Virus record (IMG/VR): IMGVR_UViG_3300025288_000013
Location: 1-64,000 of that record
Direction: 5' to 3' (one strand)
DNA length: 64,000 nt
Source of the DNA: a virus
A program made the position numbers and the translations under genes. Below, piece after piece: positions 1-63,968 of this stretch. Under the pieces are notes generated by a model that did not search any database, was not told where the DNA came from, and saw only the letters and a program-made list of their open reading frames with translations. Each line of letters opens with the position of its first letter. Positions within the stretch are counted from its first letter, which is position 1.

Positions 1-1045
1 GTCTTAATTGATTGTGTGAAGTCCACCCATGAGCAAATACTAATGAAAGGATTTCTTGGTTAATTGATTGTGCCAACTCTTCGGTTCCAATAATGTCACC
101 CATTTCACGCAAGTCCACATCCTCCTCCATTAACATATCCTGATACATTTCACGTGTAAAAGCGATTTTAACTTTGTGGGTTTGTGCACTAAAATTACTA
201 CTCCATTTTCTAAAACCAACGGTTCTGTAATCTCTTGCCTCGCCAACTTGTCTTGAATTACCTTTATGAATTGTTGAACCATCATGTCCACCAGTTCTAT
301 AAACGTCTGTATCATTTAAACCAGCTGCAGCAAACCCCTGTATGTGGTTCATGTTAGCAGAAGTATAATCAACAGTTGTTGGATCAAAACCAAAGAAATT
401 ACCAATACTTGTATAAATACCAGCAGTAGCAGTCCCTAACATTGTTTCAATTGTATCCGTAGCAAAAGCAGGATCAACCGCACCAGTTCTAAATACGGCG
501 TAACCAAGAGATCTGTCCAATCCAATATAAGTCACAGCAAGTATTTGATTACCAGCATTTGCATCAGTTATATTGTAAGAAGTACCAACAACTAATGCTG
601 TGGGTGCACCTGTAACAGCCAATTTTACAACAAATATTGATGGTAAGTTTGCATTGGTACTTGTACCATTGATAACTCCACCGGCATAAACTGGCTCCAA
701 AATATTAACTTGCAAATTTGATTTTGTCATTTGCTTACTATGTATGATATCAAATCCAACCGTAGTTGCATAAGCATCAACAAATAAACCAAACAATTCA
801 TCAAACATTTCGCCTGATCCTCTTGATTTGTCACCAGCATTGTTTGGGTTATTACCAAAACTAAAAGTACCTCTACCAACAGTATTACCTGGCGTAGCAG
901 CCTCTAAGAATTTTTTACGTACTAAAGCTGCTTCAACCATTCTTTGTAATTTTGATGGTGTAACTTTTATACCTCTTTCGTCTAATCTTGCAGAGATTTT
1001 ACTCTTATAAGTTTCGACCATTTTTTGTTTAATTATTCTGTTCAT
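1..1045 (-). CDS. Major capsid protein, T4 gp23-like (5' part; runs off the window start)
   Basis: Not in the ORF track because it is truncated. Manual translation from ATG at 1045 gives MNRIIKQKMVE...FLEAATPGNTVGRG...TVGFDIIHSKQM...YAGG; near the window start it reads AQTHKVKIAFTREMYQDML...EELAQSINQEIL, resembling the gp23 motif A-x-SR-x-LKA-x-Y-x-x-E-x-x-QDL...EINREV. It lies directly downstream of the prohead protease. Confidence 0.85.
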   Translation of the reverse strand, partial: MNRIIKQKMVETYKSKISARLDERGIKVTPSKLQRMVEAALVRKKFLEAATPGNTVGRGTFSFGNNPNNAGDKSRGSGEMFDELFGLFVDAYATTVGFDIIHSKQMTKSNLQVNILEPVYAGGVINGTSTNANLPSIFVVKLAVTGAPTALVVGTSYNITDANAGNQILAVTYIGLDRSLGYAVFRTGAVDPAFATDTIETMLGTATAGIYTSIGNFFGFDPTTVDYTSANMNHIQGFAAAGLNDTDVYRTGGHDGSTIHKGNSRQVGEARDYRTVGFRKWSSNFSAQTHKVKIAFTREMYQDMLMEEDVDLREMGDIIGTEELAQSINQEILSLVFAHGWTSHNQLR

Positions 1046-1081
1046 CTTTTTTAATTTTAAAGTGTGTAAAAATTTATATAT

Positions 1082-4000
1082 TTATATTTTAGAACCATAT
1101 TCGTTTATTACCTCAACAATTTCTGTATCATTTAACATACCTACAGCTTCTAAAATTTCTTTTTGATTACTTTTGTCCAAATTACCAAACTTAATCAAAG
1201 ATTCTGAATCTTCTTTCAACATTTCTAACTCTGGATTTTCATCAAGTATTTTTTGTGATGCGTTAGCAACAGCAACCACATCAGCATTTTCTTTAAGTAT
1301 TCTAAGGGTTTTATTTCTTAATGAATTGTTTGATTCTTGTTCCAACAACCTTATGTGTTTTGATGCTGTTTCACAAAATTTTGACACTCTTTCAAGTTCT
1401 GATTCCATCATAGCAATCTTTTCAGCTTGTTCTGTTAACAGTGTGTTTACATTTTTTCTGTAAAAATCTGCACCTTTTTGAGTGATTTCATAATTAAATG
1501 GTACACCGCCACTAAGCAAACCATCTTTTACCAATTTATCATAGTCGTTTTTTAATTTTTTAATTCCATCACCTTTAACACCGAACCACTCAATTAAACC
1601 GCTCATGTGCCTACCGTTGGTACTAATGATTGGTGCCAGCAATTTAATTGCTGAACCAATATCTTCTGGTGATTCTGTTAATAATGTGTCACTATCTTCG
1701 GCTTCTGTTTCAACAATATAAACCTCGCCAGTTTCGCCATTTTCAACCATAATCATTTCTTCATTTTCTGAAATAACTGTGTAATCAATATTGTCCTGAT
1801 CATCTGTTATACCATGAATTTCAATACTATTTTCGTCAGTTTCAACCATCGTAACCTCTTCATCAGTTTCAACCTCTTCAATAGAGTCATCGAGATTAGC
1901 CATTTCTTCATTTTCAAACAATTTTATAGCATTTGCTCTTCTTGATTTACTTCTTGAAACTGATTCAATAAGTTTTTTGACTGATTTCACTTTTTTGGAT
2001 TCTGTTAATGCTGATTTTGAAATTTCTTTAATTGATTTGAAGTTGTTTTCTTCAGCATAATCAAAGAATGCTTTTCTTGAATCTTTATCCATCATTTTGA
2101 ACAAGTCATTCATTTGTTTTCTCTGACCATTAATAAGACTTTCTTCTATATAATCAAAAAATTCAATATCAGTCGTGAAATCATGATCTTTTGCTAAATC
2201 TTTTGCTGATTTTGATTCTGTTAACATATCACATTCGTTTTCAATCATAACTTTTTTACCATAAGTATCAAAAACCCAATCTTTGAGATCGACATAATCT
2301 TGATCCATGCCTTTAACAATTTCACCTTTATCAGATATAATTTGTAAAGATTTGGCAAAAGTGTTGGATATTCTATCAATGATGCCAGCCTTTTTGCCCT
2401 CTCTTACTTCCATATCAGCCCATTTAACAACACCAGTAGGTAATTTTGATGAAAAATCATTTTCAGTTAATTTTTTATTATCCATCAATTCTTTGAACTG
2501 ATCAAGTGACAATTTAATTGATTTTCCATCTTTGTCTAATATTCTGTTAGTACCATCATACTTAGATAAAGTGTATTCACCAGAACCAACAACAGTACCA
2601 TCTGACAATGTTTTATCTTTTGGTATACGTATTTTATCACCAACTGTTTCAGTTAATTTTATTGATTCATCATCTGTTTCAAACAATTTTTCTGTTTTAT
2701 CAGTTAATCCGCCAAGTTTTTTTAATTCAGCCTTAGCACCATCAGCATCTTTTCTAATTTTGTCAGCCTTATCATTATCACCATCTGCAAGAGCATTTCT
2801 CCAAGCATTAGCCATCCTTGATAATTTTTCTCTTAGGTTAAGAATTTCTGTATCATTAGCATTTTCTGTTAGTTCTTCAGTTTCCACAACAAGTATGTCA
2901 CCTGTTTCTTCGTTTTCAACCATTAATGTTTGATCGCCAAATTCATCAACTTCTGTTTCAGAAATAACTGAATAAGTTGTTGGTTCTTCATTAACACCAA
3001 CGATTTCAACGTGATTTTCATCGGTTTCAGTTATTTCAACTGTATCATTGATTTCAACATCTTCAAGAGTTTTATCAAGTTTAGCTATTTCTTCTGATTC
3101 AAACAATCTAATGGCTTTACCTCTTTTAGAAATGTTTTTTGACACAGATTCAACAAGACGTTTTACAGATTTTACTTTGATTGTTTTCATGTTTTCTGTT
3201 AGTTTTACCGATTCAAACAAAAATTCATAAAAATCTGGATCAATATTCCAAGCATTTTTAATATATTTTAAAACTTCATCGGATGACATTTGCTCTATAT
3301 TTTCATTATCATAATCACGAGCATCCATTTCTGATCTCAAAGCCTTTTTTATTTTTTCTCCGTCTTCACCATATTTTTTTAGAAATTTATCAAGCGTATT
3401 AGAATTTTCCGTTAATTTTATCATTTTTTCTAAACCTTTGTTGATATTTTCTTTCTTAATTTTTATGTCACCATTGGCAACAATAAAGAAATCAACACCA
3501 TTTTTAAAATTTTTTTCCAAATAATCAATTAATTCTTCAAATTTCTTGAATTTATCAATATCATGTGTTGGTTTATTGATGTGAATAGTATCTTCCATAG
3601 AGTTTTCTGTTAATTTTAATAAATCACTTAGTTCTAACTCCCCTGGAGAATCATCTTTATATATATCATCCCCATCTGGGTCTGACCAAATTTTTACTTT
3701 GTTTCCGTTTTTGTCAATAAAACTAAATTCTTTGCTGTTTTCAATATCTTTTGACGCTAATAGTTCGCTAATAGTTTTACCAACCTTTGATTTTTTTATG
3801 GTTTCATAAGCTTTGTCTATTGTTGATTCGGTTAATTCGGTTTTATCAAGATTTTCCAATTCATCAACAATTTCCATTTGTAAAGTTTCCTTTTCTTCTT
3901 CAGACATAGAATCATTTTCAACCAATTTTCTGTATTTTCTGTTGATTTTAACAGTTTCTAACAAGGCTTTTGTATTATTTGATTTTTTAGCTTTTAATCT

Positions 4001-5269
4001 TATTGATTCCAACAATTCTTTAACTTCTTCTTCTGATTTTGGTTCTTCGTTTTCAAACATGTGACCTAAACCAACCAATTCTGAAACAACTAAATCAGTC
4101 AGTTCAATGTCACCACCTTTGCTTTTTATATAATCTTCCAAATCTTTAACTTTTTTTATTTTGTCAGCCAATTCTTTGTCAGCCACAATTTCTTTTGCGA
4201 TTCCTTTTTCAACGCTATCAGTTGATCCAGTTTCAGTCAATTTTTTGTCTAAAAGTTCAATTTCATCAATTATTTTTTCCTCTTCAGCGGTTTTTTCCTC
4301 TTCAGGCATAGAGTTATTTTCAACCAATTTTTTGTATCTTGTTTTGACACGTTTTGCTTCAAAAAGCACTTTCATGTTTTTCACAGTTTTTGCCTTTCCT
4401 CTAATAGATTCAATCATTTCCAATAATGGATCATCTTCGTCTTCAACTATTTCCCAAGATTCCTTGTTTTCGTTATACATAACTTCAGTTTTAGTACCAT
4501 CGATGTCAATCTTAGAAAACCATGCACCGTTATTTTTATGGGGTTTTTCCAATAAATTGTGTTCAGCACCATTAATTATTATGGCTTCATTTCCATTATA
4601 TTCTGCTATATTCATTTCTGTTAATTTTTGGTTATCTATTTTATTTTTTGGTACAATTTTTACTGATTCTGTTAAATTTTCTCCGCTCTTAGCATCATAA
4701 ACTCTTAATGTTGTACCACCCATACCACCAGATCCAACAACATCATATGTATAAAGCGTATCAAGATAAGCCTCACTTGTATCTTCGTTTAAATATCCTA
4801 TTGCTCTTGAAGAAATTGAAAGAATCCCACCATTTTCAAGAACAACTATTAAATCATAACCACCGCCAATAAGTGTTGGTATTATGGTTAATCTAATATA
4901 ACAACAATCTTCTTCTTCATCATACCACAATTTATTTATGATACCACAAATTTCTTTTGTTTTTGCTATGAAATCATCTTCCTCGTTTGGGTGGTCGGCT
5001 GATGAAAATAATCTACCATCTTCGGCAAGTTTGGCTATTCTATCAAATTCTTCAAGATAGCTTTCTTTATTGTAAAATCTTTCATTTGACGACCACCCAT
5101 TTTTAAAATCAATACATTTTCCCTCAAGAACGACAGAATCCTTGTTCTTTAAGTTTGAATTGACTAAATTAGCTGATTCGATAAGTTTTTTAGTAACTTT
5201 CTTCTTGTCTACAACTTTTAAACTAGCACCATCTTCGAAAAGTATTGTAATTTTTTTTGATTTGCTCAT
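1082..5269 (-). CDS. Prohead protease (T4 gp21-like) fused to a ~1200-aa acidic scaffold/core polyprotein
   Basis: N-terminal ~190 aa has NERFY, SADHP, ISSRAIG and YTYDVV (gp21/U9 His-Ser-Asp motifs). The remainder is acidic with many LTE/LVE/LFE motifs and internal duplications. Confidence 0.85.
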   Translation of the reverse strand: MSKSKKITILFEDGASLKVVDKKKVTKKLIESANLVNSNLKNKDSVVLEGKCIDFKNGWSSNERFYNKESYLEEFDRIAKLAEDGRLFSSADHPNEEDDFIAKTKEICGIINKLWYDEEEDCCYIRLTIIPTLIGGGYDLIVVLENGGILSISSRAIGYLNEDTSEAYLDTLYTYDVVGSGGMGGTTLRVYDAKSGENLTESVKIVPKNKIDNQKLTEMNIAEYNGNEAIIINGAEHNLLEKPHKNNGAWFSKIDIDGTKTEVMYNENKESWEIVEDEDDPLLEMIESIRGKAKTVKNMKVLFEAKRVKTRYKKLVENNSMPEEEKTAEEEKIIDEIELLDKKLTETGSTDSVEKGIAKEIVADKELADKIKKVKDLEDYIKSKGGDIELTDLVVSELVGLGHMFENEEPKSEEEVKELLESIRLKAKKSNNTKALLETVKINRKYRKLVENDSMSEEEKETLQMEIVDELENLDKTELTESTIDKAYETIKKSKVGKTISELLASKDIENSKEFSFIDKNGNKVKIWSDPDGDDIYKDDSPGELELSDLLKLTENSMEDTIHINKPTHDIDKFKKFEELIDYLEKNFKNGVDFFIVANGDIKIKKENINKGLEKMIKLTENSNTLDKFLKKYGEDGEKIKKALRSEMDARDYDNENIEQMSSDEVLKYIKNAWNIDPDFYEFLFESVKLTENMKTIKVKSVKRLVESVSKNISKRGKAIRLFESEEIAKLDKTLEDVEINDTVEITETDENHVEIVGVNEEPTTYSVISETEVDEFGDQTLMVENEETGDILVVETEELTENANDTEILNLREKLSRMANAWRNALADGDNDKADKIRKDADGAKAELKKLGGLTDKTEKLFETDDESIKLTETVGDKIRIPKDKTLSDGTVVGSGEYTLSKYDGTNRILDKDGKSIKLSLDQFKELMDNKKLTENDFSSKLPTGVVKWADMEVREGKKAGIIDRISNTFAKSLQIISDKGEIVKGMDQDYVDLKDWVFDTYGKKVMIENECDMLTESKSAKDLAKDHDFTTDIEFFDYIEESLINGQRKQMNDLFKMMDKDSRKAFFDYAEENNFKSIKEISKSALTESKKVKSVKKLIESVSRSKSRRANAIKLFENEEMANLDDSIEEVETDEEVTMVETDENSIEIHGITDDQDNIDYTVISENEEMIMVENGETGEVYIVETEAEDSDTLLTESPEDIGSAIKLLAPIISTNGRHMSGLIEWFGVKGDGIKKLKNDYDKLVKDGLLSGGVPFNYEITQKGADFYRKNVNTLLTEQAEKIAMMESELERVSKFCETASKHIRLLEQESNNSLRNKTLRILKENADVVAVANASQKILDENPELEMLKEDSESLIKFGNLDKSNQKEILEAVGMLNDTEIVEVINEYGSKI

Positions 5270-60208: not shown

Positions 60209-61288
60209 TTACTGTCTTTCACCATTTACATAAGATTCAACAGTGTTATCAGAATCATAAAAATCATCTAATTTATAATGTCCGTTTTTAGTTTTATTTA
60301 TGTGTTGAATAACACCACCCTCTTTGGTTGTTATTTCTATGGCTTCTTTTCTAACTTCGTCCAAATTGTTATTGTCTGATTCGTTCATTTTTATCAGTTC
60401 GTTCAACGGTTCATAATCTTCAGCATAATCACCCATAAAATCTTTCTTAAACAATACAGATAAGAATGCTCTCATATCCCCCTCATTATCGGTGCACCAA
60501 CTATCATTTTTGCTTATTATTTTTAACGCTCTATCTGTGTACTTTTTATCATATGTTGAACTAACAAAATTTTTGAAAGCATCTTTGTCCTTTTTGTTGT
60601 CTAAACAATACCACCCAGCATTTTGTTTTATTGACCTTAATAATGAATCAACAAAATTGCTATCGTTTTCCAACAAATCTTCATATTTTTCACCAGAACC
60701 CTTTGATTTGTCTGTTTGATTTGATGGATCGTTACCAAATGATGCTTCACCTCTGCCTGGAACAGTTGAAGTGGCTGATTCTGATTCAACCATTTTGGTA
60801 ATATCTTTCAATTTATTAATATCTGATTCTGTTAATTTTATCCCTCTGTTAATTTTGTTACCAATACTATCATTCTCAAGAATTTTACCAATTGCATTTT
60901 TAAAATTCGTTTCATATTTTTTCCTTAATCTCATTGACACAGGTTTATATGATTCTTTTAATTCAACCAATGCCTTTTTGGCTTCATCACCAGTTTTACC
61001 AATCAATTCTTCAGTTCCATCAAGTTCCATTTCTTCAAATAATGAAACCTTATCAGATAGTTTTGATACGTCATCAAGCATTTGAAGAAAATCATCTGTT
61101 GATTTACCATCATAATCTTCACCAAATAGATCAAAATCTTTATTATCACGTGCAAACACATTCAGCTTTCCATTAAAATTTTCAAGCATTTCATAGGTAA
61201 TATCTTTTTCACTAAATACTTTACCTCTCACATTGTTTAGTGTGAATAGTTTTGCTAATTCTTCTTTTGTTATTGATTTTGGTGTCAT
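60209..61288 (-). CDS. Putative head-associated protein with LxE sites and a capsid N-arm-like segment
   Basis: LTES, MVES, LLEN and MNES sites; GRGEASFGNDPSNQTDKSKGSGE is similar to the MCP N-terminus. Confidence 0.6.
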   Translation of the reverse strand: MTPKSITKEELAKLFTLNNVRGKVFSEKDITYEMLENFNGKLNVFARDNKDFDLFGEDYDGKSTDDFLQMLDDVSKLSDKVSLFEEMELDGTEELIGKTGDEAKKALVELKESYKPVSMRLRKKYETNFKNAIGKILENDSIGNKINRGIKLTESDINKLKDITKMVESESATSTVPGRGEASFGNDPSNQTDKSKGSGEKYEDLLENDSNFVDSLLRSIKQNAGWYCLDNKKDKDAFKNFVSSTYDKKYTDRALKIISKNDSWCTDNEGDMRAFLSVLFKKDFMGDYAEDYEPLNELIKMNESDNNNLDEVRKEAIEITTKEGGVIQHINKTKNGHYKLDDFYDSDNTVESYVNGERQ

Positions 61289-61305: not shown

Positions 61306-61334
61306 ATAAACTTTTAAATTTGGTTTTTGTTACA
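61306..61334 (-). promoter_or_regulatory. TGTAACAA-N15-GTT promoter
   Basis: Exact motif upstream of the ORF starting at 61288. Confidence 0.75.
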
Positions 61335-63968
61335 TTAATCTTTTAATAATTCATCAGCTAGATCACCAATGCCTTTTATCAACGGATTGTTTTCAAATGC
61401 TTTAACGATTTTATCTTTCTTTTCTTTCAAATCATCAATAGCCAATTTTATCTTTTCTTTAGCTGTTGGGTCTTCTTCACCAGCCAATTCTTTCTTTAAA
61501 TCTTCTATTTCTTTGTCAAGTTTTAACTTATCTTCAAGATTTTTTATAACCAACTCCTCTTTTTCTATATTAGTTTTTAACTTTTCAATAGATTCTTCAT
61601 TGGTTTCATCAGCTAATTTTTGTTTAAGTTCAAGTATATCTTCTTTTGATTCTTTGATTCTTTGTTCAATTTTAACCAATTTTTCCTCACGTTTTTTAAC
61701 TGCCTCTGAATCTTCTGCCTCTGTTAATTCTTTATTTTCAAATACCATACTTGCTAATTCCTTGTATCTATCAACGTTACCAAAAATGATATCATAATTA
61801 CCAAGTTGTTCAGGTTTCACCCAAGCATATTCAGAATGTTCTTCTGACAAAACAACCTCTTCACTATTTGATAAACCAGAATAATAGTGGGAAACGCTAC
61901 CATCATTTGTGAATTCTTTTAATCGCTTCACATCGCTAAATGTTAGCCCAGATTCCTCATTTGCCTCACGAATAGCAGCTTCTTCAGTTGTTTCACCGTC
62001 TTCAACTTTACCACCAGCTAAACCCCATTGGTTCGGTGCAACTTCTTCATCAACTGTTCTTTTTAATAACAAAAGTTCGCCCTTATCATTATAAATGACC
62101 ATATCAGCATAAGTTTTTATCTCTCCAACACCATTTTCATTTTCAACTAATTTCTTTAATATACCACTTATTTTTGTTTGACACGATTCAGTTAATTTAC
62201 CAAATTTGGTTGACGAACCCTCTTTCATTTCTATTAACGCATCATATACTTCGTTAACATCTTCGTTTTCTGATAATTCTGATATGAGTTGTAAATCTTC
62301 ATCGTCTAATTGATTAACAATTTCAATTTCTGATACAATTTCTGTTGGTTCAACGATTTCGTTTTCTACCAATGGCGTCTTAAAAATCACGCCAGTCATT
62401 GTGTCGTAATCCCATATACCAATAAAGTTACCATCTTGGTCTTTAAACCAATCTTGGTCACCTCTTGATTCTATGCTACCATCACCAACATAAGATAAAC
62501 CTTGTGAAAATGAATTAAAGTTATCATATTTGTCACCACCAAGTTTTGATATGTCTTTAAATGATTCAGTCAATTTTGCTGATTCTAATACCTTATGTTT
62601 TTTTAATAATTCAATATCATCAACAGTCACAGGAAACCCAAATCCGTCACTTAATGTTTTCATAAGTTTCTTTTCATTACTTGCAGCATCAGTAACTTGT
62701 GGTATCAGTTTACCATACTGATCAAGTATTGCTTTGTCTGTGTTGGTTCCATCTTCAAACCCCCCCAAAACCTTTATAATTTTAAAGCCAATTGAATTCT
62801 TAAGATCACCATCACTTTCAGTTAATTTTGCTGATTCTGTTAGTTCAACAATAACTTCAACATCTTCTTTATCATCATAAATTGATAGAGTTTTGTTTTC
62901 AACATCAAAATCCAATTCAAAATCGCCAAAGTCTGATCGCCATGATTCTTTCGTACCATATTTTTTGAATAACGATTTTATACCATCAATATCTTTTTTC
63001 CCAAAATGTAATCTTGAATTATCATCTTCAATTGATGAATTTTTTTCTATATGTTTTATAATTTTATCAATTGGTGTTGATTCACTTTCAGTTAATTTTG
63101 ATTCAACAAATCTCAAATCTGAAGATGGCACATTAAGTTTGTTTTCATTTTCTATTTCTAGTTCATTTTCAGTTAACTTGTTTATTGGTGTTACAGAATA
63201 TTTGTTTTCATCTATGGCAAATACGTCATAATCTTTACCATCAACTCCTAATTGTACACCTGCACTACCGTTTATTGGTGTCCCCAATATCATTGATAAT
63301 TCAGAACCACTAAACATTTTTTTGACCTTATCTTTATCAACAACAATTTCTTTACTTTCAGTTAACTTTTTTGGTTTAAAATGAATTGGGTGTGCCTTTT
63401 CCTTAGTATTTTTATCAATTATCCAATTATCTTTAGTTATTTCACCGATTTCAAACGGTTCACCAAGAACTGTACCAACATCACCAACTTTTAAACCACG
63501 TCCTTTGATATTGGTTTCTCTTTGGTGATTATCAGCATAGCCCTCATTCAAAACCGTTAAATAATCAAATGCTATTGTTTCTACACCAAGAAATTTTCCA
63601 TTTTTGTCAAACACAGACACATCAACATCATAATCGTTTTGACCAGTTTTATCAAGTCTATCAACAATACCATAATAATCTGGATATTTTTTATCACCTA
63701 TAAGAATTTTAACTTTGTCATTAACTTTTGGTAATACTGCTTCAGTTAGTTTATCTACACCGTTCACTTCAACATCACCAATTTTATAAGTACCATTTTC
63801 TTTCAGTGCTTTTATAATTTTGTTGCTTTCAACAAGCATAACAAATTTACCTTTTTGTATTTTGGCTGCTTCCGTTAGTCCAACCACTTCAACCACTTCA
63901 GATATAGTCATTTCATTTTCATTATCTAAGTTTGATAAAATCTGTGCAACAGTTGAATCATTGCTCAT
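61335..63968 (-). CDS. LTE-punctuated acidic polyprotein with an embedded Nudix hydrolase domain
   Basis: Nudix box GGKVEDGETTEEAAIREANEESGL; about 10 LTE motifs; C-terminal coiled coil. Confidence 0.75.
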   Translation of the reverse strand: MSNDSTVAQILSNLDNENEMTISEVVEVVGLTEAAKIQKGKFVMLVESNKIIKALKENGTYKIGDVEVNGVDKLTEAVLPKVNDKVKILIGDKKYPDYYGIVDRLDKTGQNDYDVDVSVFDKNGKFLGVETIAFDYLTVLNEGYADNHQRETNIKGRGLKVGDVGTVLGEPFEIGEITKDNWIIDKNTKEKAHPIHFKPKKLTESKEIVVDKDKVKKMFSGSELSMILGTPINGSAGVQLGVDGKDYDVFAIDENKYSVTPINKLTENELEIENENKLNVPSSDLRFVESKLTESESTPIDKIIKHIEKNSSIEDDNSRLHFGKKDIDGIKSLFKKYGTKESWRSDFGDFELDFDVENKTLSIYDDKEDVEVIVELTESAKLTESDGDLKNSIGFKIIKVLGGFEDGTNTDKAILDQYGKLIPQVTDAASNEKKLMKTLSDGFGFPVTVDDIELLKKHKVLESAKLTESFKDISKLGGDKYDNFNSFSQGLSYVGDGSIESRGDQDWFKDQDGNFIGIWDYDTMTGVIFKTPLVENEIVEPTEIVSEIEIVNQLDDEDLQLISELSENEDVNEVYDALIEMKEGSSTKFGKLTESCQTKISGILKKLVENENGVGEIKTYADMVIYNDKGELLLLKRTVDEEVAPNQWGLAGGKVEDGETTEEAAIREANEESGLTFSDVKRLKEFTNDGSVSHYYSGLSNSEEVVLSEEHSEYAWVKPEQLGNYDIIFGNVDRYKELASMVFENKELTEAEDSEAVKKREEKLVKIEQRIKESKEDILELKQKLADETNEESIEKLKTNIEKEELVIKNLEDKLKLDKEIEDLKKELAGEEDPTAKEKIKLAIDDLKEKKDKIVKAFENNPLIKGIGDLADELLKD

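What the first reader, a model, noticed from the sequence alone, without database searches (positions are those of the whole stretch)
60680..60795. A non-capsid protein carries a copy of the major capsid protein's N-terminal arm
Seen: MVE-SESATSTVPGRGEASFGNDPSNQTDKSKGSGEKYEDL aligns with MCP FLE-AATPGNTVGRGTFSFGNNPNNAGDKSRGSGEMFDEL (about 800-905). Both follow a predicted x-x-E cleavage site, and the copy is closed by LLEN. The rest of the protein is not capsid-like. Inference: a mimic peptide that substitutes for an MCP arm, for example at the portal vertex, or anchors cargo to the shell. Its middle-type promoter suggests it is made before assembly.
Basis: partly seen in the sequence, partly recalled or inferred. 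Interest (0 to 1): 0.7.

Follow-up and report, generated by a model that had tools for sequence, protein, structure and literature searches.

The report
Capsid-arm copy inside packaged head polyprotein
An uncultured T4-like phage encodes a protease-cut internal head protein that carries a well-preserved copy of the flexible N-terminal arm of its own major capsid protein, starting at the same cut site; phage T4 has an unstudied counterpart (gene 61.1), and the copy probably addresses or anchors protein in the head.

Summary
Residues 166-206 of a 359-aa protein (window 60209-61288, minus strand) match the major capsid protein (MCP) from its predicted maturation site through the first ~36 mature residues (BLASTP E 3e-12; z 18.6 against shuffles). 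Nothing else in the protein resembles the MCP.

The protein is a mosaic. A propeptide-like N module is followed by the arm copy, bracketed by MVE|S and LLE|N, and then by two small cargo domains. Stand-alone homologues of those domains carry T4-style capsid-targeting leaders. The L-x-E-[S/N/T] motif is concentrated in this protein, the protease-scaffold protein and a neighbouring NUDIX protein, so all three look like prohead-protease substrates.

The copy is old: synonymous sites are saturated. It still keeps 11 of 12 MCP-invariant positions.

No relative (MaF61, three complete IMG/VR genomes), no IMG/VR or JGI contig and no protein database entry has a second copy, so covariation within this clade cannot be tested.

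Following a lead from earlier notes of this scan, which had reported capsid-arm copies on other DNA, I confirmed that T4 gp61.1 copies gp23's cut site and N-fist (E 6e-9). Long forms share the same layout.

Best reading: an MCP-arm mimic used as a head address or anchor. The mechanism is untested.

The parts
60209..61288 (-). Gene for the 359-aa mosaic head polyprotein (stop codon included)
   Evidence: ORF list. It has seven [LM]-x-E|[SN] sites, after residues 36, 112, 138, 154, 168, 207 and 303. No Pfam or PHROG family matches.
61306..61334 (-). Promoter-like motif TGTAAC-N17-GTTTAT. It starts right after the stop of the upstream NUDIX gene and ends 17 nt before the ATG.
   Evidence: 17 matches in the window against 2.5 expected. 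The other copies precede DNA polymerase, SSB, primase, guanylate kinase and dNMP phosphatase genes. Function as a promoter is inferred.
60785..61288 (-). N module, residues 1-168: a propeptide-like region ending in KLTE|S (after residue 154) and MVE|S (after residue 168)
   Evidence: Homologues P0002, P0004, P0006, P0008, P0009 and P0010 carry this module in front of different C-terminal parts. In MaF61 it sits near the C-end of the NUDIX protein. AF2 gives residues 1-85 as a helical domain with pLDDT about 90 and residues 87-173 as lower-confidence helices.
60668..60784 (-). Copy of the MCP N-terminal arm, residues 169-207. The core G-R-G...G-S-G-E is residues 178-200. The last residues, KYEDLLE, could instead be a remnant of a targeting leader.
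   Evidence: for significance. 17/28 identical to the own MCP in the core, pS 0.65 and pN 0.31. It keeps 11 of 12 MCP-invariant columns. It is absent from all homologues of the flanking modules. It is disordered in both AF2 models, pLDDT 33-50.
60380..60667 (-). Cargo module M, residues 208-303: a helical bundle with two conserved Cys motifs (W-Y-C and S-W-C-T-D-N)
   Evidence: Homologues P0005, P0011, P0012, P0018 and others. Stand-alone homologues start with an MK-x-IK-x-FE-x-F-x-NE|S type leader, cut 15-22 residues before the first Cys motif, the same place as LLE|N here. AF2 pLDDT is above 90. No fold match.
60212..60379 (-). Cargo module C, residues 304-359, after MNE|S: one helix plus a three-stranded sheet
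   Evidence: Many homologues, such as P0007 and P0013. AF2 pLDDT is above 90 when an alignment is supplied.
794..910 (-). Template: the MCP maturation site FLE|A (902-910) and the mature N-terminal arm, residues 49-84 (794-901)
   Evidence: The MCP belongs to Pfam Gp23, PF07068. The site [ILV]-[FYL]-E|[SA] and the arm motif are conserved in seven related MCPs.
1082..5269 (-). 1395-aa protease-scaffold protein, the presumed source of the cleaving activity and core
   Evidence: 23 strict L-[TVIFL]-E-[SNT] motifs. The N-terminal 220 residues match Peptidase_S80 weakly (E 1.9e-4, 21.2 bits, cut-off 23.4) and Peptidase_S77 at E 0.038. The MaF61 orthologue is annotated as prohead scaffold.
61335..63968 (-). 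Upstream neighbour: an 877-aa NUDIX-domain protein with 10 strict cleavage motifs
   Evidence: Pfam NUDIX E 3e-20; motif count. The MaF61 orthologue (924 aa) has the N module fused at its C-end.

Best explanation
The 359-aa protein is a prohead-protease-processed internal head polyprotein of a T4-like phage; the closest cultured relative infects Flavobacterium. Between its removable N module and two small cargo domains it carries a functional mimic of the MCP's N-terminal arm. By position, that arm corresponds to the T4 gp23* 'N-fist' plus the start of the N-arm. The mimic begins at a site aligned with the MCP maturation site, so the same protease would give it the same kind of free N-terminus as the mature MCP. 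I infer that it engages whatever the MCP arm engages: the scaffold core in the prohead and/or arm-docking sites in the shell. It would thus serve as an address or anchor that places the polyprotein and its products at the shell-core interface. A second cut at LLE|N would then release it as a 39-residue peptide and free the cargo. Shown here: the homology, its confinement to the arm, the mosaic architecture, the motif enrichment, the old age with retained constraint, and the T4 parallel. Inferred: actual cleavage, packaging, the binding partner and the role.
For: 1. Homology is confined to the arm.
2. The strict motif L-[TVIFL]-E-[SNT] occurs 23, 10 and 2 times in the scaffold, NUDIX and 359-aa proteins. 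It occurs 7 times in about 50 other ORFs. The MCP site is conserved in seven relatives.
3. Synonymous sites are saturated (pS 0.65) while pN is 0.31, similar to MCP-versus-MCP pairs. The copy keeps 11 of 12 MCP-invariant columns but only 6 of 16 variable ones (Fisher p 0.006). Its identity to MCP arms (13-17 of 28) lies within the MCP-to-MCP range of 13-23.
4. The arm is an insertion absent from all homologues of the flanking modules. Homologues of the cargo modules carry T4-like targeting leaders.
5. The arm is disordered on its own, as expected for a segment that orders only in a lattice.
6. In T4, gp23* residues 66-105 are disordered and inside the unexpanded head, probably touching the core. 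They later form the intercapsomer N-fist and arm (PMC9546572 and PMC7136217).
7. There is an independent parallel in T4. gp61.1 has a targeting-type leader followed by a copy of gp23 57-93, E 6e-9. Long forms in Acinetobacter and Aeromonas phages have an N domain, then LTE|S, then about 15 residues, then x-x-E-E|, then the arm copy. Each clade's copy matches only its own clade's MCP: scores 53-96 and 109 against 21-31 for cross-clade pairs.
Against: No relative has the copy: not MaF61, not the complete genomes G003 and G006, not IMG/VR or JGI contigs, and not the 5.8-billion or 1.8-billion protein sets. It is therefore dispensable in this clade, and covariation within the clade cannot be tested. 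One MCP-invariant residue of the core is changed (N to D), and a nearly invariant aromatic residue (F, or Y in one MCP) is Ala in the copy. The N module or a leader remnant could already suffice for targeting. In T4 the N-fist ends up on the outer surface, which an internal peptide could hardly reach. There is no expression, mass-spectrometry or structural evidence. The protease domain assignment falls below Pfam's cut-off.
Confidence: 0.5

Rival explanations
1. The copy acts as a free structural peptide. After both cuts, the 39-residue mimic stays in the head and fills arm-docking sites that lack an MCP arm, for example around the portal or at vertices, and so stabilises the shell.
For: The copy is bracketed by two good sites. 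LLE|N lies where stand-alone module-M homologues are cut. The T4 gp61.1 forms would also mature to peptides of about 44 residues that start like mature gp23. In T4 the N-fists of the five portal-facing subunits are disordered, so the lattice is irregular there (PMC7136217). Only one Gp23-family gene is detectable in MaF61, G003 and this record, so no separate vertex paralogue was found.
Against: There is no evidence for vacant docking sites or for retention of the peptide. T4 propeptide fragments are reported to leave the head (PMC5694885). In T4 the N-fist is external after expansion. Close relatives build heads without such a peptide.
Confidence: 0.18
2. The copy is an evolutionary scar or plain spacer. 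Head-protein genes of this phage shuffle modules at cleavage-site boundaries. A 5' piece of an MCP gene was captured, and it survives only as a linker that supplies a well-cut site.
For: The protein is clearly a mosaic, with the N, M and C modules found in many other contexts. The copy is unique to this phage. If the donor was an unsampled relative's MCP, the divergence from the own MCP would say nothing about constraint on the copy.
Against: A neutral linker of this age should have lost the MCP-invariant residues, yet 11 of 12 are kept with pN far below pS. A cleavage cassette does not need about 35 conserved residues on the P' side. The same device recurs independently in Straboviridae in 1389 phage records.
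Confidence: 0.14
3. The copy is a protease-directed decoy or timer. As a pseudo-substrate that imitates the MCP site and its P' side, it competes for or recruits the prohead protease and so tunes when the MCP is cut. It may be made earlier than the shell.
For: The similarity starts exactly at the cut site. The gene has the replication-gene type promoter motif. T4 61.1 also lies among replication genes, next to the primase gene.
Against: T4-type proteases are described as needing little beyond L/I-x-E (PMC9026906). There is no evidence that the protease reads P' residues out to +35. The protease is thought to act only inside the assembled prohead.
Confidence: 0.08

Closest known systems
T4 gene 61.1 product and its long forms in Straboviridae (conserved ORF, no function assigned; PMC1524935)
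   Same: It is a non-capsid protein in which a leader or N domain ends in an L-x-E type site and is followed directly by a copy of the own MCP's first mature residues. T4 gp61.1 matches gp23 57-93 at E 6e-9. The long forms have an N domain, then LTE|S, then about 15 residues, then a second site, then the copy, the same order as here. The gene lies among replication genes, and the gene here has a replication-class promoter motif.
   Different: There is no sequence homology to it. The copies match only their own clade's MCP, and the N domains are unrelated (hhalign E 0.72). In T4-type forms the copy is followed by a short basic tail. Here it is followed by a second cleavage site and two folded cargo domains. 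The device is near-universal in Straboviridae (1389 records) but unique to one phage in this clade.
T4 internal proteins IPI-III and Alt with a capsid targeting sequence (CTS)
   Same: A short N-terminal leader targets diverse cargo to the prohead core and is removed by gp21 at L/I-x-E (PMC9026906 and PMC3012670). Cargo modules M and C have homologues with such leaders. Cleavage motifs are enriched here.
   Different: A CTS is about 10 residues and is not described as a copy of the MCP. Here the MCP-like part lies after the cut and would persist as a mature N-terminus.
Long propeptides of giant-phage inner head proteins (SPN3US, phiKZ)
   Same: Propeptides longer than 100 residues with several protease sites are thought to target proteins into the prohead (PMC5694885). 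The 168-residue N module fits that picture.
   Different: The protease motif differs (A/S/G-x-E), and no MCP-derived segment is described there.
SaPI1 CpmB and the 80alpha scaffolding protein
   Same: This is an established case of motif mimicry in capsid assembly. CpmB competes with the scaffolding protein for the same site on the capsid protein, next to its N-arm (PMC5644958).
   Different: There the mimicked element belongs to the scaffold, not to the capsid protein, and the mimic comes from a parasite of the phage. It redirects capsid size.
P1 DarA-Hdf pairs on the inner capsid wall
   Same: They are internal, ejected proteins held at defined lattice positions. 55 pairs sit at penton-hexon junctions (PMC12810830).
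   Different: Binding there is through helical bundles, not through a copy of an MCP segment.

Membership tests
T4-type protease-processed internal head proteins (CTS or propeptide class) | Clustered prohead-protease motifs (L/I-x-E type) that are rare in non-head proteins | tested here: met
   The strict motif occurs 23, 10 and 2 times in the scaffold, NUDIX and 359-aa proteins, against 7 in about 50 other ORFs. The looser motif occurs 7 times in the 359-aa protein, always with P1' = S or N.
T4-type protease-processed internal head proteins (CTS or propeptide class) | A cognate prohead protease of the gp21 / phiKZ gp175 type in the genome | tested here: inconclusive
   The N-terminal 220 residues of the 1395-aa protein match Peptidase_S80 at E 1.9e-4 (21.2 bits, cut-off 23.4) and Peptidase_S77 at E 0.038. 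The orthologue in L018 gives E 7.7e-5. PDB sequence search finds nothing.
T4-type protease-processed internal head proteins (CTS or propeptide class) | Cargo domains that elsewhere carry an N-terminal targeting leader ending in a cleavage site | tested here: met
   Stand-alone homologues of modules M and C begin with MK-x-IK-x-FE-x-F-x-NE|S type leaders.
T4-type protease-processed internal head proteins (CTS or propeptide class) | Physical presence in proheads or virions, and cleavage at the predicted sites | not testable with these tools
   The phage is uncultured and no proteomics are available.
Gp23/gp24-type capsid protein paralogue (HK97 fold) | Sequence similarity to the MCP beyond the N-terminal arm, or a Pfam PF07068 match | tested here: not met
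   No Pfam family matches. With the arm masked, the best local score against the full 545-aa MCP is 36, against 37.7 +/- 5.5 for shuffles.
Gp23/gp24-type capsid protein paralogue (HK97 fold) | HK97-like fold | tested here: inconclusive
   The AF2 models are helical domains plus one helix-and-three-strand domain. No capsid protein is among the fold-search hits; the best Z values are 4.9 and 7.4, both generic helical matches. Absence from a hit list does not exclude a fold.
T4 gp61.1 family | Sequence homology to gp61.1 | tested here: not met
   No PHROG match. T4-type copies score 21-25 against this phage's MCP arm, and the window's copy scores 22-31 against T4-type MCPs. The N domains are unrelated.
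T4 gp61.1 family | Architecture: a leader or N domain, then a cleavage site, then a copy of the own MCP's mature N-terminus | tested here: met

The most novel reading that the evidence does not exclude
Separately encoded copies of the MCP N-terminal arm are a general, overlooked component of T4-like head assembly. They have been acquired or co-evolved independently in distant clades: Straboviridae gp61.1 and this Flavobacterium-phage-like clade. After cleavage at the MCP-like site, the copies dock into arm-binding sites of the lattice or core that symmetry breaking leaves empty (portal or vertices). There they either stabilise the shell or tether cargo or DNA. This phage delivers such a copy from a polyprotein.
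Probability: 0.15. Interest if true: 0.8.

Novelty: new variant of a known kind. Interest (0 to 1): 0.55.

Why it matters
Packaging of proteins into T4-type heads is explained today by short targeting leaders that bind the core. A conserved, protease-framed copy of the capsid protein's own arm in non-capsid proteins suggests a second principle, in which a protein is addressed or anchored by imitating the shell subunit. I confirmed such copies in two distant clades of T4-like phages, and each matches its own clade's capsid protein. T4 has a counterpart in gene 61.1, a conserved ORF with no assigned function, so the idea can be tested directly in a model phage. If it holds, it would give a new handle for loading cargo into phage heads. 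It could also explain irregular densities at symmetry-mismatched vertices.

Tried and rejected
1. Degenerate full-length MCP paralogue: rejected. There is no similarity outside the arm, no Pfam Gp23 match, and the predicted structure is not capsid-like.

2. Recent duplication or assembly chimera: rejected. Nucleotide identity is 52% and synonymous sites are saturated, and the same junctions occur on a second contig.

3. Real extension of the similarity into the MCP propeptide (RGIK-L/V-T): not established (hhalign E 0.012).

4. Orthologues with the copy: none found. The searches were:
- tblastn of INPHARED;
- The search for homologous proteins on the whole protein and on region 160-212;
- an exhaustive HMMER search of 1.8 billion representatives;
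- IMG/VR protein-pattern scans;
- a degenerate DNA pattern for the arm motif in IMG/VR and JGI metagenomes, which returned only MCPs and chance hits;
- each relative's own arm searched against its own genome.

5. Homology of the N module to the N domain of long-form gp61.1: none.

6. Function of the cargo modules: no fold or Atlas lead.

7. Alignment of the arm to the T4 N-fist: profile search of the PDB and hhalign against gp23 align only the spine-helix region. The N-fist equivalence is therefore positional only.

8. Fine-scale covariation within Straboviridae was uninformative, because their N-fists are nearly identical.

Full report
WHAT IS THERE. The window is the first 64 kb of a 110,222-bp IMG/VR virus record, estimated 64% complete. 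Its left end cuts through a Gp23-family major capsid protein (MCP) gene on the minus strand at 2-1045 (Pfam PF07068). A 3.9-kb JGI contig (L034) is 99.9% identical to the window's left end. It extends past that end and supplies the full 545-aa MCP. The closest cultured relative is Flavobacterium phage MaF61, with 42% MCP identity. Six further related MCPs came from IMG/VR and JGI contigs. The finding concerns a 359-aa ORF on the minus strand at 60209-61288.

- BLASTP of the 359-aa protein against the MCP gives E 3e-12 (30/77 identical).
- A search of the whole record with the segment finds only itself and the MCP, at E 1.7e-10.
- The local alignment score is 104, against 26.6 +/- 4.2 for 5000 shuffles.
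- The match runs from the residues M-V-E (166-168), aligned with F-L-E (46-48) of the MCP, to Leu205, aligned with Leu84.
- With the arm masked, the rest of the protein is no more similar to the full-length MCP than shuffled sequence is (36 against 37.7 +/- 5.5).
- The upstream resemblance to the MCP propeptide is not significant by itself.

THE CLEAVAGE-SITE PREMISE. The strict motif L-[TVIFL]-E-[SNT] occurs 23 times in the 1395-aa protein next to the MCP gene. It occurs 10 times in the 877-aa NUDIX protein, twice in the 359-aa protein, and only 7 times in about 50 other ORFs of the window. The 1395-aa protein starts with a weak, sub-threshold match to prohead proteases (Peptidase_S80 E 1.9e-4; S77 E 0.038), and its MaF61 orthologue is annotated as scaffold. 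The MCP site [ILV]-[FYL]-E|[SA] just before the arm is conserved in all seven related MCPs. In the 359-aa protein all seven candidate sites have Ser or Asn at P1' (after residues 36, 112, 138, 154, 168, 207 and 303). These three proteins therefore look like substrates of a T4-type prohead protease. Actual cleavage is inferred.

THE PROTEIN IS A MOSAIC, NOT A CAPSID PARALOGUE. An exhaustive HMMER search and inspection of the hits resolve four parts.
- N module (residues 1-168). It occurs in front of unrelated C-terminal parts in P0002, P0004, P0006, P0008, P0009 and P0010. It also occurs near the C-end of the MaF61 NUDIX protein. In the window, the NUDIX gene and this gene are adjacent but separate.
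- The arm copy (residues 169-207). No homologue of either flank has it.
- Module M (residues 208-303).
- Module C (residues 304-359).

Modules M and C are widespread small domains. Their stand-alone homologues begin with leaders of the type MK-x-IK-x-FE-x-F-x-NE|S, which resemble the T4 capsid targeting sequence. LLE|N lies where those leaders are cut, 15-22 residues before the first conserved Cys motif.

AF2 models give a confident helical domain for residues 1-85 and confident folds for M (helical bundle) and C (one helix plus three strands). The arm copy is disordered, with pLDDT 33-50. Fold searches return only generic helical matches, best Z 4.9 and 7.4.

AGE AND CONSTRAINT. The two DNA segments are 52% identical. 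Over the 28-codon core, pS is 0.65 (saturated) and pN is 0.31. That is close to the values for MCP arms of different phages, for example pS 0.62 and pN 0.24. The copy keeps 11 of the 12 columns that are invariant in seven MCPs, but only 6 of 16 variable columns match its own MCP (Fisher p 0.006). Its identity to MCP arms (13-17 of 28, highest to its own MCP) lies within the MCP-to-MCP range of 13-23. It therefore behaves like an MCP arm under arm-like constraint. One caveat applies: if the donor was an unsampled relative's MCP, part of this signal would reflect MCP evolution and not constraint on the copy.

NO ORTHOLOGUE CARRIES IT. MaF61 and the complete records G003 and G006 have the arm only in their MCP. 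This holds whether they are searched with the window's copy or with their own arm. The 5.8-billion protein set finds only an identical fragment when searched with the arm region. A degenerate DNA pattern for the arm motif finds only MCPs and chance hits in IMG/VR and JGI metagenomes.

WHAT THE MCP ARM DOES IN T4 (literature). gp23* residues 66-91 form the 'N-fist', followed by an extended N-arm. Residues 66-105 are disordered and point inward in the unexpanded head, where they probably touch the scaffolding core. After expansion they make intra- and intercapsomer contacts and contribute to the Soc site. The fists of the five portal-facing subunits stay disordered (PMC9546572 and PMC7136217). 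The equivalence of this phage's arm to the N-fist is positional only, because profile comparisons align only the spine-helix region.

A PARALLEL IN T4 ITSELF. Earlier notes of this scan, found by a word search, reported capsid-arm copies in other phages, among them T4 gene 61.1. I tested that lead. T4 gp61.1 (54 aa) has a targeting-type leader ending in I-K-E, followed by a copy of gp23 57-93, which spans the L-T-E|A site and the N-fist (BLASTP E 6e-9, 17/37 identical). Homologues occur in 1389 phage records. The only paper found that mentions the ORF lists it among conserved ORFs without function (PMC1524935).

The long forms in an Acinetobacter phage and an Aeromonas phage have an N domain of about 95 residues, then L-T-E|S, then about 15 residues, then a second x-x-E-E| site, then the arm copy, then a basic tail. 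That is the same order of elements as in the 359-aa protein. There is no sequence homology between the two systems. Each copy matches only the MCP of its own clade: scores are 53-96 and 109 within a clade and 21-31 across clades. The device is therefore either very old and co-evolving with the MCP, or it arose more than once. Either way, a mere scar is unlikely.

PROMOTER REMARK. The motif TGTAAC-N17-GTTTAT lies at 61306-61334, between the NUDIX stop and the ATG. The motif class has 17 hits against 2.5 expected. Elsewhere it precedes DNA polymerase, SSB, primase, guanylate kinase and dNMP phosphatase genes. The gene thus shares a signal with replication genes, as T4 61.1 shares its neighbourhood with the primase gene. 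The timing itself is not shown.

READING. I commit to the following. The segment is a functional mimic of the MCP arm, built into the processed part of an internal head polyprotein. It is cut by the prohead protease at the MCP-like site. It acts as an address or anchor through the partners of the real arm, which are the core in the prohead and/or the shell lattice (confidence 0.5). Whether it ends as a free 39-residue peptide with a structural role (0.18), is only a spacer or scar (0.14), or tunes the protease (0.08) cannot be settled without proteomics, genetics or structures. T4 gene 61.1 offers a direct experimental route.

Noticed in passing
window 61335-63968 (-): An 877-aa protein with a NUDIX hydrolase domain (Pfam E 3e-20) carries 10 strict protease motifs, so a NUDIX enzyme is probably packaged in the head and cut into pieces. 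In MaF61 the orthologue (ORF123, 924 aa) has the N module of the 359-aa protein fused at its C-end.
   Followed up: partly
window 1082-5269 (-): The 1395-aa 'scaffold' begins with a weak prohead-protease-like domain (Peptidase_S80/S77, below cut-off) and holds 23 strict cleavage motifs. By eye it also contains two long internal repeats that each start with a V-K-S-V-K-[RK]-L-[VI]-E-S motif. It looks like a protease-scaffold fusion.
   Followed up: partly
window 60212-60667 (-); proteins P0005, P0007, P0011, P0013, P0078: Modules M (two Cys motifs, W-Y-C and S-W-C-T-D-N) and C (Q-H-V-N-K ... D-W-Y-D-S-D) are widespread small phage domains without a Pfam family or a fold match. They often sit behind T4-like targeting leaders. 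P0078 (2043 aa) combines module M with SNF2-helicase and Zeta-toxin domains.
   Followed up: partly
L034 (JGI contig Ga0051980_10028457), 1-3899: This contig is 99.9% identical to window 1-1470 and runs about 2.4 kb beyond the record's left end. It gives the full-length MCP (545 aa, two ambiguous residues) and the next genes.
   Followed up: partly
window 961-976 (MCP residues 24-28) and 60827-60850 (residues 147-154): MCP propeptides of all seven relatives share K-G-[IVM]-K-x-x-E-[SK]. N modules of several phages end in G-I-K-L-T-E|S. The profile comparison aligns exactly these stretches but only at E 0.012. A shared propeptide element is possible.
   Followed up: partly
window, 17 sites, e.g. 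5301, 10642, 27583, 31118, 42583, 61306: The motif TGTAAC-N17-GTTTWT (17 hits against 2.5 expected) precedes replication and nucleotide-metabolism genes and the 359-aa gene. It is a candidate phage promoter class.
   Followed up: partly
L050:65-541 (Acinetobacter phage fHyAci03) and L051:104-553 (Aeromonas phage AS-yj): Long forms of T4 gp61.1 (158 and 149 aa) place an N domain of about 95 residues and two L-x-E type sites in front of the gp23-arm copy. They always lie next to the primase gene.
   Followed up: partly
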